Below the pieces are notes generated by a model. That model ran no database searches and was not told the origin of the DNA. It saw nothing but the letters and a program-made list of their open reading frames with translations. Of a stretch of DNA of 64,000 bases, positions 357 through 62,267 are shown piece after piece. The position numbers and the translations under genes were made by a program. Origin of the DNA: the human T2T-CHM13v2.0 reference genome, Homo sapiens; the NCBI RefSeq assembly GCF_009914755.1, contig NC_060941.1. One strand, written 5' to 3'. How positions within the stretch are numbered: position 1 is the first letter of the stretch; each line of letters begins with the position of its first letter.

Positions 357-410
357 CTGCTGGAAAGTTGTATAAATGTAAGTTGCTGAATGGAACAAGG
401 TCTCTCAAAG
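357..410 (+). CDS. EF-hand-repeat exon 1 (54 nt, short type a)
   Basis: atcttacag|CT...AAAG|gtaagt; encodes AGKLYKCKLLNGTRSLK. Confidence 0.85.
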
Positions 411-873
411 GTAAGTGAGAAATCAGGTAAAAGTGATTGCGTTTACTTTTTTAAAACCACATATATTTGGGGTGATGACAAGTTTGGCAATTAACCTGTT
501 TACTAAGTGTTTTTGTCTCATAATTTACTACTTTGAACATAGTGCCTTTGGGGAAATGATTTTTTATTCTATCACTACATTTAAAATCTATTTTACAAAT
601 AGAATTATAAAGGCAGTTTCTTTCCACATTTCATCAGACTTGCCTAGTTCTTCAGTTTTTTCCTTATAAATGTCCCATGAAAGCTATAGTCAGATCCTCT
701 AGACAAAAATGGGAGAGCACGTTCTGCTCCCGATTCACATAGCAATTCTTTTCATATAAACAACTTTATTGTTTCTTTGATTGTTTACCCTCTGTTAACT
801 CATGGACATGCCCAGTATTTTTCACTTTATCCTTATTGTTTGCATTTCTCATTCCTGTCCTCTTTTTTCTAAG

Positions 874-978
874 GAGTGAAGCTTAGTGTTGATAAGCTAG
901 AACCCTTCATAGAACATACGGGCTTTGAGCTTGAGGAAGAGGAATACCAAGATCTGAAAAACAACCTGCCCATTTATG
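874..978 (+). CDS. EF-hand-repeat exon 2 (105 nt)
   Basis: ttttctaag|GA...TATG|gtgagc; GVKLSVDKLEPFIEHTGFELEEEEYQDLKNNLPIY. Confidence 0.88.
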
Positions 979-1998
979 GTGAGCTGCTCTTTAAGCAAAA
1001 CTTTCGATTCATATATGAGAACTTCTGATAGTATATTTAGAGTTGTGCAGAAGCATTAAAAAATGAAAAGAACTACACTCCAGCCTGAGCAACAGAGTGA
1101 GACCCTGTCTCCAAAATAAATAAATAAATGCATAAATAAATAATATATAAAAAGGTAAGAGTCCAGTCCTCAAGAATTAATCAATTCATGCAGTAGACTT
1201 TATTGAGCATCTAATATATATAAACTATTAGGAATACAAAAATGAAGATGACAGGATCTCTGACCTCTAGGAGTTCATAGTCTAGTAATACAGCTTATAT
1301 GCAGACAAGTCATCATAATGCTATGTGGTTGTGAATATATAAAAATATATTCAGTGAGATCCTAAAGGAGGAAAGAGCTAAGTTTGCCAGGAAGGCAATC
1401 AGAGAAAGGCTTGTCAGAAGATGTGTGGAAATTCTCCCAGATGAAGGCATTCCAGATAGGAAAATAATGCATACAAAAGCATAAATGCATGCAAAGTCAC
1501 AGAATTGTTAGGAGAGCAGCAAGAATTTCCTTGTGGGTAGAATGTACTCTTCATGTTACAACATGGCAAGAAAAAAAAAAAAAGGCTGGAAAGGCAGATT
1601 GCCAAGACTGGAAAGCTGTGTAGTTTAGCTGTCATCATTCTTTTGAGCCTTTCAGTAATGTGTGCCTTTCTGGAAATTTGTCCATTTCATCTAAGTTGTC
1701 TTATTTGTTGGCATGAAGTTGTTCATGGTATTTCTTTATATTCCTTTTTAATTTCTATGAAGTCAGTAATGATTTTCTTTCTCATGATTTTGATCTGTAT
1801 CTTTTTTATTTAGTCAGACTAGCTAAAGATTTGCCAATTTTGTTGATCTTTTCAAAAAGCCAACATCAATTTTTCCTATCAATTTTCTGTTTTCCATTTT
1901 ATTGATTTCAGCTCTAATCCTCATTATTTTCTTCTCTCAGCTTACCTTAGGTTTAGTTTGTTCTTCTTATGGTGAAAACTTAAATTCTTAACTTAAAA

Positions 1999-2135
1999 TC
2001 CTTCCTCCTGCTCCTCCTCCTCCTTCCCCTCCTCCTCCTCTCCTCCTCTCCTCCTCCTCCTCCTCCTTCTTCTTCTTCTTCTTTCTCTTTCTTCTTCTTC
2101 TTCTTCTTCCTCCTCCTTCTTCTTCTTTTTTTCTT
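1999..2135. repeat. (CCT)n/(CTT)n compound microsatellite at an Alu tail
   Basis: About 135-nt near-pure pyrimidine run adjoining a minus-strand Alu. Confidence 0.9.
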
Positions 2136-2412
2136 TGACAGAGTTTTGCTCTTGTTGCCCAGGCTGGAGTGCAATGGCACCTTGGCTCACTGCAACCTCC
2201 GCCTCCCGGGTACAAGCGATTCTCATGCCTCAGCCTCCTGAGTAGCTGGGACCACAGGCATGCAACACCATGCCTGGCTAATTTTTGTATTTTTAGTAGA
2301 GAAGGGGTTTCACCATGTTGGTCAGGCTGGTCTCGAACTCCTGACCTCAGGTGATCCACCCACCTCAGCCTCCCATAGTGCTGGGATTACAGATATGAGC
2401 TACCATGCCCAA
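2136..2412 (-). mobile_element. Alu (S-type)
   Basis: Reverse-complement Alu consensus. Confidence 0.95.
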
Positions 2413-60480: not shown

Positions 60481-61115
60481 TACATAGGGTCAGAGTCGTT
60501 TATCCTCTCTCTATGCTTAACTGTAACCAATCACTTCTTAATTTAGACCACTCTGGTGGTCTCTAACACAAAGAAAAACAAAAAATTTGATAGATTTGTC
60601 ACAATTAAAGCTTTCTTTGTTTCTAAGATAACACTCTTATCTCTGAGGATAAGTCCATACAATTCTAAGGAAAAATTTAAAGATTAGTAAATTCTGGCTG
60701 GGCATGGTGGCTCACACCTGTAATCCCAGCACTTTGGGAGGCCAAGGTGGGTGGATCACTTGAGGTCAGGAGTTCAAGACCAGCCTGCCAACATGGTGAA
60801 ACCCCATCTCTACTAAAAATATAAAAAATTAGTTGGGCGTCGTGACGTGCACCTATAATCCCAGCTACTCGGGAGGCTAAGGCAGGAGAATCACTTGAAC
60901 CCGGGAGGCAGAGGTTGCAATGAGCTGGGATCATACCACTGCACTCTAGCCTACGCAACAGAGTGAGACTCCACCTCAAAAAAATAAAAAAAAAAGAAAA
61001 AGATTACTGAATTCTTATGATCTTCATAACTTCAGAACTTCACACAGCATTAATGTTGAGGGTCTCAGTAACATCAGTTCATCTGACTCTGGGGTATACT
61101 TTTCTTGCCTTACAG

Positions 61116-61169
61116 GTGAGACAGCAGTTGACCTGAATGACTTAATGGATGCTGTCAGTTACATCAAGG
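61116..61169 (+). CDS. EF-hand-repeat exon 16 (54 nt, type b)
   Basis: gccttacag|GT...AAGG|gtgagt; GETAVDLNDLMDAVSYIK. Confidence 0.85.
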
Positions 61170-61318
61170 GTGAGTTGCAAGCTATAATGGAAAGATGTTG
61201 TAAGTAATATCTTAATATTTGCTATTAATGTTGGAGAAGAATATTTTCTATTCATAAGTGTTCAGATTTTTCATATAACGTATGTTCCATTTTTGTGGAT
61301 GCTGCTGAAGTTGAGTAA

Positions 61319-61423
61319 GCACCAGCATGGCACATGTATACATATGTAACTAACCTGCACAATGTGCACATGTACCCTAAAACTTAAAGTATAATAATAA
61401 AAGAAAAAAAACTTAAAAAAAAA
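61319..61423 (+). mobile_element. Very short young L1 3' end (L1PA2/pre-Ta-like)
   Basis: gcaccagcatggcacatgtatacatatgtaactaacctgcacaatgtgcacatgtaccctaaaacttaaagtataata plus A tail. Confidence 0.88.
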
Positions 61424-62163
61424 ACAATAACTAATCTGTATTTATATATCAGTGCCCATACTAGTCTCCAAAATTTTCAGCAAAACAGTTCTTCAAAATA
61501 GTAATAGATATCAAGAGCCACAGAACTATTCATACCCTTTTCCCCACTAACCCCAGTCTTAGAAATTTATCCTTTAAAAATAGTTTCATTCTCATAATTG
61601 TGAGAAAATTGAAACAGATTAGAAATATCTAACCATACAGGAATTACTACATAAACCATGGTATGTCAGTTTAATGGGATACCATGTTAAAATGCTAGCT
61701 GTAAAGATTATATGGCAACTTGGAAACATGTTTATGAAGGAATGATTTTAGGTTGGAAAAGCAAAATACAGAAGTGTACATGTATTAGATTTCCACATTG
61801 TAAAAGTAAAGCCTTATTGCCAAGACCAAAATGGAATATCAAAAACTAAAAATGGTTCCTGTGTTAGAGTGATGGAATTCTATCTTTCCCCTGTTACATT
61901 AATCTGTAATGTTGTTACATAAAACTAAGTCCCTATATGTACTTTAATGTGCTGTGGATTTTGCAACAACCCACCAGTCAATTCCTAACCCCTGGTTACT
62001 TTCTTCTTTGTAGCCACTTTCTGATTCTTTCAATCAGAATTAAAGATTTTTGTTTCTGATTCTCCTATTCTGGATGATAATGTATATAAGCACAGATAGT
62101 GTTCTTTGTCCTTTGCAAATAATTCTGTAATATTTTTGCAATTCATTTCTCACCCTTTCTAAG

Positions 62164-62267
62164 GAGAGGTGATTGATGTCCAGAACTTAGACAATTTCTA
62201 GCAAGCGAAGGGATTGAGCTCACAGAAGAAGAAATGAAGGAGTTGATGCCTCATTTGACATTTAACG
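62164..62267 (+). pseudogene. EF-hand-repeat exon 17 (104 nt) with 1-nt deletion and premature TAG
   Basis: tttctaag|GA...AACG|gtgagg. In frame it reads GEVIDVQNLDNF then TAG at 62199-62201; restoring one base gives the consensus-like ...NFLASEGIELTEEEMKELMPHLTFN. Confidence 0.85.

What the first reader, a model, noticed from the sequence alone, without database searches (positions are those of the whole stretch)
357..62267. Hidden array of alternating 54-nt and 105-nt symmetric exons encoding a 53-aa degenerate EF-hand tandem-repeat protein
Seen: 17 exons spread over 62 kb of repeats, all AG...GT and phase 1-1, exactly 54 or 105 nt (the last 104). They splice into about 424 stop-free codons with consensus G.KV.V.NL..FL.NMG..L...E...L...LP.D..GKV....LM...K...G. 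None is recovered as a gene by the ORF track. Established: this pattern lines up with calmodulin [44 protein letters not shown]. Inference: this is the middle of a very large modular EF-hand-like protein. From recall, it is probably the EFCAB13/EFCAB3 ancestral gene (one giant gene in mouse, two separated loci in human), and these exons may lie outside annotated coding models.
Basis: partly seen in the sequence, partly recalled or inferred. Interest (0 to 1): 0.92.

Follow-up and report, generated by a model that had tools for sequence, protein, structure and literature searches.

The report
Orphaned repeat exons upstream of EFCAB3
These are real leftover coding exons of a giant ancestral calcium-binding-like gene that was broken apart in the ancestor of humans, chimpanzees and gorillas; the split is already published, and the exons look like slowly decaying relics, not a hidden working gene.

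Summary
The window holds 16 intact AG..GT, phase 1-1 exons (8 of 54 nt, 8 of 105 nt; 1272 nt, 424 stop-free codons). A 17th exon of 104 nt has lost one base and runs into TAG.

They match pig-tailed macaque "EFCAB3 isoform X2" residues 841-1368 exon by exon (419 of 458 residues identical), so these exons are annotated coding sequence in macaque. Lilue et al. 2018 already described the 188-exon Efcab3-like gene and its split into EFCAB13 and EFCAB3 in Homininae.

New details found here:
- The array continues upstream of the window and ends inside an exon, at a microhomology junction with a segmental duplication.
- Three exons present in macaque are missing from human.
- Macaque residues 1-840 have no human counterpart.
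- Amino-acid change on the human branch is 24 versus 7 on the macaque branch, close to my neutral estimate.
- The true repeat period is 106 aa (four exons).
- The modules are EF-hand-like but lack canonical calcium-binding loops.

Most likely these are non-coding relics. Whether they are still spliced into testis transcripts is untested. Interest is low to moderate.

The parts
1..356 (+). Left edge of the window: intron sequence of the relic array, which continues upstream outside the window. The form takes only window coordinates 1-64000, so the outside parts are listed here: (a) intact 105-nt exon at -3727..-3623; (b) intact 54-nt exon at -4434..-4381; (c) truncated 3' end of a 105-nt exon at -9614..-9590 (LCEHLPID + G, GTGAGC donor), joined through the 4-nt microhomology CTGT to a cut Alu; (d) segmental duplication block at -15999..-9611.
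   Evidence: (a) Profile hit outside the training set, E 2e-4; AG..GT; aligns to macaque from residue 841. (b) 91% identical to macaque 820-841, E 2.3e-7; splice sites. (c). (d) 98% identical over 6000 nt, and 99% over the last 389 nt, to chr17:61083768-61090175; homology ends at -9611.
357..410 (+). 54-nt exon, subtype A
874..978 (+). 105-nt exon
6773..6826 (+). 54-nt exon, subtype B
13029..13133 (+). 105-nt exon
   Evidence: Single copy in the genome.
13898..13951 (+). 54-nt exon, subtype A
20028..20132 (+). 105-nt exon
23334..23387 (+). 54-nt exon, subtype B
32055..32159 (+). 105-nt exon
32821..32874 (+). 54-nt exon, subtype A
36014..36118 (+). 105-nt exon
36119..42662 (+). Interval where three exons present in macaque (70 aa) are absent in human
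   Evidence: 70-residue gap in the alignment. The three exons are also present in bat P0008 and in P0022, and partly in cow P0007. tblastn finds no remnant here, and the profile scan finds none.
42663..42767 (+). 105-nt exon
44922..44975 (+). 54-nt exon, subtype B
45891..45995 (+). 105-nt exon
46809..46862 (+). 54-nt exon, subtype A
47854..47958 (+). 105-nt exon
61116..61169 (+). 54-nt exon, subtype B
62164..62267 (+). 17th exon, 104 nt: one base lost, TAG at 62199 in the incoming frame, first ATG of the EFCAB3 frame at 62234. RefSeq lists 62163-62267 as the 5'-most exon of other EFCAB3 transcripts. The next repeat exon (54 nt, NGKINVNSIMEGLKKFK) lies outside the window at 65760..65813.
   Evidence: Macaque reads the same exon through as EVIDVQNLDNFLVSEGIELTEEEMKELMPHLKFN. 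RefSeq span from the hub table. Exon at 65760: profile hit E 0.013, AG..GT, matches macaque 1402-1423.

Best explanation
These are orphaned relic exons of the ancestral giant Efcab3-like gene.

- In most mammals one gene runs from the EFCAB13 promoter, through a long array of 54-nt and 105-nt phase 1-1 exons that encode degenerate EF-hand-like modules, into the EFCAB3 C-terminal part.
- In the ancestor of human, chimpanzee and gorilla the gene was broken.
- In this genome the 3' piece of the array begins abruptly inside an exon, where it is joined to a segmental duplication. That step is shown here.
- The piece has therefore lost the ancestral promoter and all upstream coding sequence. That step is inferred.
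- It has since lost three exons and suffered a 1-nt deletion in the last repeat exon. That deletion disconnects the array from the EFCAB3 reading frame.
- EFCAB3 itself survives. Its short form starts at an internal Met that is also present in macaque. By position, a longer form would start at the first ATG after the frameshift.
- The 18 still-intact exons stay open and keep their splice sites because too little time has passed for neutral decay to break them, not because they are needed.
For: 1. Orthology. The joined human exons (458 aa) align in order with macaque EFCAB3 isoform X2 residues 841-1368, with 419 of 458 aligned residues identical. Macaque continues through the 17th exon into MAVSEIKPK, the start of the short EFCAB3 form that matches the PDB chains 8otz_u and 9v10_Ba.

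2. Literature. Efcab3-like has 188 exons and 5,874 aa, is mostly repeated EF-hand domains, and was broken in Homininae by a ~15 Mb rearrangement that also deleted many internal repeats. The full-length promoter lies upstream of EFCAB13 (passages).

3. 5' truncation. Only the last 25 nt of an exon survive, and they abut a truncated Alu at the edge of a 98-99% identical duplication. The two sides share CTGT.

4. Missing upstream coding sequence. Macaque residues 1-840 and a 926-aa snub-nosed monkey repeat protein find no orthologous exon in the human genome. The same tool found 10 of 10 of the 105-nt-class exons here.

5. Disabling changes. There is a frameshift plus TAG in exon 17, and three exons are absent.

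6. Rate of change.
- Of 39 human-macaque differences, 24 fall on the human branch, 7 on the macaque branch and 8 are ambiguous (binomial p 0.003).
- My neutral estimate for the whole branch is 30.
- The human-branch rate is 24 of 458 in the relic versus 9 of 443 in the retained EFCAB3 part (Fisher p 0.012).

7. Survival is expected. Under neutrality I expect only 0.26-0.52 new stops and 0.54-1.09 hits to splice dinucleotides, so P(none) is 0.20-0.45.
Against: - The retained EFCAB3 part shows the same direction of asymmetry (9 human-branch versus 4 macaque-branch changes). The ratio does not differ significantly from the relic (Fisher p 0.71), so part of the human-branch excess may be general and not a result of orphaning.
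- 24 changes is more than the roughly 12-19 I estimate for relaxation only since the Homininae ancestor: P(>=24) is 0.0015 for an expectation of 12, 0.06 for 17 and 0.15 for 19. The divergence figures behind those estimates are recalled, not computed here.
- 18 of 19 complete exons of this array upstream of the annotated gene are intact, and every splice site is intact. With small indels included, my rough expectation is 2.2-4.4 disabling events against about 1 seen; P(<=1) is 0.35-0.07.
- RefSeq's 5'-most EFCAB3 exon starts at 62163, one base before the ancestral acceptor boundary. That looks like a 5'-truncated cDNA spliced from an upstream exon ending in G.
- No expression data, no ape DNA and no population data could be examined.
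Confidence: 0.8

Rival explanations
1. The exons no longer code for protein but are still transcribed and spliced. They would form a long 5' leader, or NMD-targeted isoforms, of EFCAB3 in testis. The upstream open frame ending at the exon-17 TAG would lie ahead of the ATG at 62234, and might modulate EFCAB3 output.
For: All acceptors and donors are intact and strong, so any transcription across the region should splice them. RefSeq's first exon of other EFCAB3 transcripts starts at 62163, the G of the ancestral AG acceptor. The upstream exon 61116-61169 ends in G, as expected for a 5'-truncated spliced cDNA (hub table; this is inference).
Against: No promoter is evident. There is no CpG island in 154 kb. 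The array starts at a junction with a duplication whose annotated pseudogenes lie on the other strand (hub table). Lilue et al. report only low testis expression of EFCAB3. No RNA data were available here.
Confidence: 0.13
2. The exons still encode a working human protein. This would be either an unannotated repeat protein of about 470-500 aa that ends at the exon-17 TAG, or an N-terminal extension of EFCAB3 in people who lack the 1-nt deletion.
For: The frame stays open for 470 residues from the -3727 exon to the TAG, with in-frame Met codons from residue 28. 18 exons are intact. A predicted structure of a relative folds confidently (pLDDT above 90 over residues 60-215).
Against: - The array has no ancestral start and is cut inside an exon.
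- A stop in exon 17, far upstream of the last junction, would be expected to trigger NMD (general knowledge).
- Human-branch replacements are near my neutral estimate and hit positions invariant in macaque, cow, bat and P0022, such as the Met of the NMG motif in five exons.
- No human or ape protein containing these exons came back. That search lists one representative per 90% cluster, so this is weak evidence.
Confidence: 0.05
3. The pattern is a chance set of AG..GT open frames or a product of interspersed repeats.
For: AG..GT open frames of these lengths are common: 112 and 36 on the + strand, 89 and 38 on the - strand.
Against: Leave-one-out profile recovery of 8 of 8 105-nt exons. In-order match to macaque, cow and bat proteins at E = 0. 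151 library proteins match the exon profile at E <= 0.001, up to 83 copies in one protein.
Confidence: 0.01

Closest known systems
Mouse Efcab3-like (Gm11639), and the full-length gene predicted in orangutan, macaque, bushbaby and squirrel monkey (Lilue et al. 2018)
   Same: Same gene lineage. It is a long array of short repeated exons encoding EF-hand-like modules that ends in the EFCAB3 C-terminal part. Library giants of 6,935 and 4,684 aa carry 83 and 57 copies of the 34-aa exon module.
   Different: The human copy is a fragment. It is cut inside an exon at its 5' end, has no counterpart of macaque residues 1-840, lacks three exons and is frameshifted before EFCAB3.
Macaca nemestrina EFCAB3 isoform X2 (P0002, 1880 aa)
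   Same: Exon-for-exon orthologue of the human array at residues 841-1368, with 419 of 458 residues identical. There it is annotated as coding sequence.
   Different: Macaque reads on through exon 17 into EFCAB3. Human cannot.
Human EFCAB3 short form and its solved orthologues in sperm doublet microtubules (PDB 8otz_u, 9fqr, 9v10_Ba)
   Same: Same locus and strand. The relic array lies directly upstream, and the last two repeat exons lead into it.
   Different: The solved chains (438 and 432 aa) cover only macaque residues 1445-1880 and hold the one canonical EF-hand pair. EFCAB3 sits with TSSK6 and CFAP97D1 on sperm doublet microtubules (passages). No repeat module is in those chains.
Calmodulin, troponin C and EFCAB6 (EF-hand superfamily, Pfam PF13499)
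   Same: Repeated helix-loop-helix with a short strand in the loop. The Foldseek matches of the relative's model are calmodulin and troponin C entries (31 at E <= 0.001). Pfam EF-hand_7 is found in 6 of 7 repeat-only relatives.
   Different: The unit is 53 aa with three helices, not a four-helix pair. TM-scores are only 0.15-0.35. The human array has 0 canonical Ca-binding loops (pattern recalled). Single human exons give no Pfam EF-hand match.

Membership tests
Efcab3-like / EFCAB3 repeat array (orthology) | In-order, exon-by-exon match to the repeat region of a full-length or long EFCAB3 protein of another mammal | tested here: met
   Macaque residues 841-1368, 419 of 458 identical. Cow 64% and bat 62% over the whole length.
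Efcab3-like / EFCAB3 repeat array (orthology) | Position directly upstream of the EFCAB3 C-terminal exons, on the same strand | tested here: met
   Macaque residues 1369-1880 map in order to window 62186-108249 on the + strand. Hub gene table.
Efcab3-like / EFCAB3 repeat array (orthology) | One continuous reading frame from the array into EFCAB3 | tested here: not met
   The 104-nt exon gives TAG at 62199 in the incoming frame. Macaque reads through.
Efcab3-like / EFCAB3 repeat array (orthology) | Presence of the upstream array and the EFCAB13-side promoter in the same transcription unit | tested here: not met
   The array ends at a junction with a duplication at -9611. Macaque residues 1-840 have no human orthologue (this search gives a lower bound only).
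EF-hand superfamily (Pfam EF-hand_7, PF13499) | Significant match to the family profile | tested here: inconclusive
   Human single exons: 0 of 8. The joined human peptide could not be handed to the tool. Relatives: 6 of 7 with E <= 0.0014, of which 2 exceed the 30-bit cut-off. The 4,684-aa giant scores 519 bits with 10 matched stretches.
EF-hand superfamily (Pfam EF-hand_7, PF13499) | Canonical 12-residue Ca-binding loop (acidic position 1, Gly 6, Glu/Asp 12) | tested here: not met
   0 matches in the 458-aa human peptide. P0002, P0012 and P0013 have 1 each, all in the C-terminal canonical hand (pattern recalled from PROSITE).
EF-hand superfamily (Pfam EF-hand_7, PF13499) | Helix-loop-helix fold resembling solved EF-hand proteins | tested here: inconclusive
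   The model is of relative P0051 (60% identical to human residues 245-458), not of the human peptide. pLDDT 79.7. Calmodulin and troponin C are the top Foldseek hits, but TM-scores are 0.15-0.35.
Unitary relic (pseudo-exons left by gene breakage) | Disabling lesions relative to the functional orthologue | tested here: met
   A truncated exon, a 1-nt deletion with a stop and three exons absent.
Unitary relic (pseudo-exons left by gene breakage) | Neutral rate of change since the breakage | tested here: inconclusive
   24 human-branch versus 7 macaque-branch changes (p 0.003), with a whole-branch neutral estimate of 30. The retained part also leans the same way, 9 versus 4. No ape DNA was available for dN/dS.
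Unitary relic (pseudo-exons left by gene breakage) | No transcription or translation | not testable with these tools
   No RNA, ribosome or peptide data were available.

The most novel reading that the evidence does not exclude
The orphaned array is not dead. Its intact splice sites would let testis (or brain) transcripts, started at an unannotated promoter in or near the hominine-specific duplication, splice 18 or more relic exons onto EFCAB3. That would give a hominine-specific repeat protein of about 470-500 aa ending at the exon-17 TAG, or a very long upstream open frame that controls translation of the longer EFCAB3 form.
Probability: 0.1. Interest if true: 0.55.

Novelty: already known. 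Interest (0 to 1): 0.3.

Why it matters
The gene and its break-up are already in print, so the main value here is a clean explanation plus detail for annotators.

- About 19 exon relics upstream of human EFCAB3 could be recorded as pseudo-exons.
- RefSeq's 5'-most EFCAB3 exon is itself a frameshifted repeat exon.
- The 5' end of the relic array is pinned to a base-level junction with a duplicated block. This is a candidate breakpoint of the hominine rearrangement that split a gene whose knockout enlarges the mouse brain.
- If the relics proved to be spliced or translated, this would be a dated example of what happens to coding exons after a gene is cut in two.

Tried and rejected
- Searching the human genome with the exon alignment was not accepted. 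A single 34-aa exon found only its in-window paralogues at E 1.4-6.4.
- Single exons against Pfam gave no EF-hand match: 0 of 8, best hits unrelated at E >= 0.01. The exon profile against PDB gave nothing at E < 0.05; EF-hand proteins made up 7 of the 17 sub-threshold rows.
- A profile scan for further decayed exons in the window found none beyond the 17. A minus-strand hit at 30072-30116 (E 0.02) is taken as chance. The same 54-nt profile missed the real exon at -4434, so divergent 54-nt relics could be overlooked.
- tblastn for the three missing exons in 36119-42662 found nothing.
- A search for a human protein using the exon at 65760 returned only a 185-aa read-through ORF from short contigs. 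It did not show the annotated longer EFCAB3 form. The claim that this form starts at 62234 is therefore inference from position.
- My first control for the rate test was inflated by tblastn read-through at exon edges (24 versus 4). I corrected it (9 versus 4) and use only the corrected figure.
- A CpG-island scan of 154 kb found none.
- The figures and supplements of Lilue et al. could not be seen. They may already show the human relic exons or the breakpoint.
- The report form takes only coordinates 1-64000, so the parts that lie outside the window are described in the text of the first and last rows of the parts list.
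Full report
WHAT IS THERE

- Eight are 54 nt long, starting at 357, 6773, 13898, 23334, 32821, 44922, 46809 and 61116.
- Eight are 105 nt long, starting at 874, 13029, 20028, 32055, 36014, 42663, 45891 and 47854.
- Each has a pyrimidine-rich tract before the AG (0.63-0.95) and a GTAAG or GTGAG donor.
- Joined, they give 1272 nt = 424 codons with no stop.
- The 17th exon (62164-62267) is 104 nt. In the incoming frame it reads GEVIDVQNLDNF and then TAG at 62199. The rest of the conserved peptide (..FLASEGIELTEEEMKELMPHLTFN) lies in the next frame.

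IS IT MORE THAN CHANCE?

Splice dinucleotides plus an open frame are not enough on their own. The + strand has 112 such 54-nt and 36 such 105-nt candidates, and the - strand has 89 and 38. The homology is decisive.
- With each exon left out of the profile in turn, 8 of 8 105-nt exons are the best non-training hit in the six-frame window (E 5e-11 to 3.8e-6).
- Of the 54-nt exons, 4 of 8 rank first (E < 0.005) and the others rank 2, 3, 8 and 9.
- A profile of the eight 105-nt exons finds 151 library representatives at E <= 0.001. These include proteins of 6,935 and 4,684 aa with 83 and 57 matched stretches.

WHAT IT IS

A database search with the open frame around exon 13029 returned 11 mammalian proteins. 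They are named EFCAB3, EFCAB13 or "uncharacterized", and include Macaca nemestrina EFCAB3 isoform X2 (P0002, 1880 aa).

The joined human peptide, counted from an extra exon just upstream of the window, is 458 aa. It aligns in order with P0002 residues 841-1368. A multiple alignment gives 419 of 458 aligned residues identical. Cow and bat EFCAB3 proteins match at 64% and 62% identity over the whole length.

After residue 1368 macaque continues with the 17th exon read straight through, then the next 54-nt exon, then MAVSEIKPK.... This is the start of the 438-aa and 432-aa EFCAB3 chains solved in sperm doublet microtubules (8otz_u, 9fqr, 9v10_Ba). There EFCAB3 sits with TSSK6 and CFAP97D1 (passages of PMC13066092).

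So the window holds the last part of the repeat array of the ancestral gene, directly upstream of EFCAB3.

WHAT IS ALREADY IN PRINT

Lilue et al. 2018 (bioRxiv 10.1101/235838; passages read, figures and supplements not seen) report the following.
- Efcab3-like is a 188-exon, 5,874-aa mouse gene made mainly of repeated EF-hand domains.
- It is full length in orangutan, macaque, bushbaby and squirrel monkey.
[quoted passage not shown] - EFCAB3 is expressed only weakly, in testis.

PMC8662591 repeats this (passage).

Three searches were run. One search found 93 papers holding either term and listed 20. One search found 75 and listed 25. One search found 2 papers holding both gene names. I read passages of both, and neither lists the human relic exons. 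The unseen figures may show them.

EXTENT AND EDGES OF THE RELIC

I fetched 40 kb upstream and 50 kb downstream of the window.

Upstream there are two more intact exons: 105 nt at -3727..-3623 and 54 nt at -4434..-4381. Next comes only the last 25 nt of a 105-nt exon with its donor, at -9614..-9590 (LCEHLPID; macaque has KLCEDLPLD).

The DNA from -15999 to -9611 is 98-99% identical to chr17:61083768-61090175, and the homology stops at -9611. At that point the other copy runs on as the rest of an Alu. Here the Alu is cut and joined to the exon remnant, and the two sides share CTGT. This is a non-homologous, microhomology-type junction inside a coding exon.

That this junction is the rearrangement breakpoint itself, and not a later event, is my inference. 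The hub table places USP32P4 and TBC1D3P2 just upstream.

No orthologous human exon was found for macaque residues 1-840, nor for a 926-aa snub-nosed monkey repeat protein. The same tool, run with the whole macaque protein, found 10 of 10 of the 105-nt-class exons of this locus and none of the ten 54-nt ones. These searches used a stricter first look, so the counts are lower bounds.

Inside the window, three exons present in macaque, bat P0008 and P0022 (two of the three in cow) are absent between 36118 and 42663. They total 70 aa. No remnant was detected. Because every exon is phase 1-1, this loss keeps the frame.

STATE OF DECAY

The open frame from the -3727 exon runs 470 residues to the TAG in exon 17. 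By phase, the -4434 exon and the remnant would add 18 + 8 codons. I read this off and did not join them in a script.

I polarised the 39 human-macaque differences with cow, bat and P0022 as outgroups.
- 24 changes fall on the human branch, 7 on the macaque branch and 8 are ambiguous (binomial p 0.003).
- 13 of the 24 hit positions where macaque and all three outgroups agree.
- These include the Met of the NMG motif in five exons.

As a control, the retained EFCAB3 part (443 positions) gives 9 human-branch, 4 macaque-branch and 2 ambiguous changes. That is after removing a tblastn edge artefact that had inflated my first count.
- The human-branch rate is 24/458 versus 9/443 (p 0.012).
- The macaque-branch rate is 7/458 versus 4/443 (p 0.55).
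- The human:macaque ratio does not differ significantly between the two parts (p 0.71).

For the neutral expectation I used divergence figures that I recall, not ones computed here: about 3.15% on the human branch since macaque, and 0.8-1.6% since the hominine ancestor.
- A neutral sequence of this composition would collect about 30 amino-acid changes over the whole branch.
- Since the break it would collect 7.6-15.3 amino-acid changes, 0.26-0.52 new stops and 0.54-1.09 hits to splice dinucleotides.
- Finding no stop and no lost splice site therefore has probability 0.20-0.45 and needs no selection to explain it.
- The 24 changes are near the whole-branch neutral figure and somewhat above what relaxation since the break alone predicts: P(>=24) is 0.0015, 0.06 and 0.15 for expectations of 12, 17 and 19.

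Taken together, the array looks unconstrained on the human branch. The test is coarse and lacks ape DNA.

ARCHITECTURE OF THE MODULE

The 54-nt exons fall into two alternating subtypes. One resembles GKVYKxxLL and the other VDLNVMMDE. Mean identity is 0.40 within a subtype and 0.21 between subtypes (permutation p 0.034). Self-similarity of the macaque array is higher at lag 106 (0.393) than at lag 53 (0.306). The true period is therefore 106 aa, or four exons.

The EF-hand likeness holds at family level only.
- Pfam EF-hand_7 scores 519 bits with 10 matched stretches in the 4,684-aa giant.
- It is found in 6 of 7 repeat-only relatives, 2 of them above the curated cut-off.
- A repeat-only relative finds EFCAB6, centrin and calmodulin in PDB at E 0.0017-0.4.
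- An AlphaFold model of relative P0051 (60% identical to human residues 245-458; mean pLDDT 79.7, above 90 for residues 60-215) shows strand-helix, helix, strand-helix repeated every 53 residues.
- Its Foldseek hits are calmodulin and troponin C entries (31 at E <= 0.001), but with TM-scores of only 0.15-0.35.
- A recalled PROSITE-type Ca-loop pattern matches 0 times in the human peptide. It matches once each in P0002, P0012 and P0013, always in the canonical C-terminal hand.

"Degenerate EF-hand-like, probably not Ca-binding" is a fair description.

HOW THE LOCUS WORKS NOW

This section is inference.

EFCAB3's short form starts at the internal Met (MAVSEIKPK), which is also present in macaque. 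The first ATG in the EFCAB3 frame after the frameshift is at 62234 (MKELMPHLTFN-G-NGKINV...). By macaque numbering, a start there would give 490 residues.

RefSeq's 5'-most EFCAB3 exon is 62163-62267 (hub table). It is therefore the frameshifted repeat exon itself. It begins on the G of the ancestral AG acceptor, and the upstream exon ends in G. That is what a 5'-truncated cDNA spliced from upstream would look like. This is the only hint that the relic exons may still be spliced.

No CpG island lies anywhere in the 154 kb examined.

VERDICT

The phenomenon is published. The exons are best read as decaying relics (confidence 0.8).

The details added here:
- the base-level 5' junction;
- the in-frame three-exon loss;
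- the frameshifted exon reused as an EFCAB3 first exon;
- the 106-aa period.

They are useful for annotation but not surprising.

Noticed in passing
outside the window: G000 chr7:129778349-129780950 (+): A second copy of the last two EFCAB3 coding exons (macaque residues 1733-1775 and 1768-1880) at 84-90% amino-acid identity, both open. It is probably a partial duplicated pseudogene.
   Followed up: no
window -15999..-9611 and chr17:61083768-61090175: A duplicated block of at least 6.4 kb at 98-99% identity bounds the relic array. I did not map its full extent, or its relation to the USP32P4 and TBC1D3P2 pseudogenes in the hub table.
   Followed up: partly
proteins P0161, P0083, P0085 (public protein libraries): Some library 'proteins' are read-through translations of exon plus intron of this locus. 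P0161 (185 aa) is 100% identical to a 71-aa exon-intron open frame from short contigs. P0083 and P0085 are 97% and 92% identical to human exon frames. These are ORF-calling artefacts on primate-like DNA, not spliced proteins.
   Followed up: no
window 74901-108249 (EFCAB3 retained exons): The retained EFCAB3 coding part also shows more human-branch than macaque-branch replacements (9 versus 4 of 443 positions, not significant).
   Followed up: partly
window 30072-30116, minus strand: The best off-family hit of the 54-nt exon profile (E 0.02-0.2). It has no supporting context and is taken as chance.
   Followed up: no
window -40000..114000: No 500-nt stretch meets CpG-island criteria (GC >= 0.55, observed/expected >= 0.65) anywhere in the 154 kb around EFCAB3's 5' end.
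   Followed up: yes
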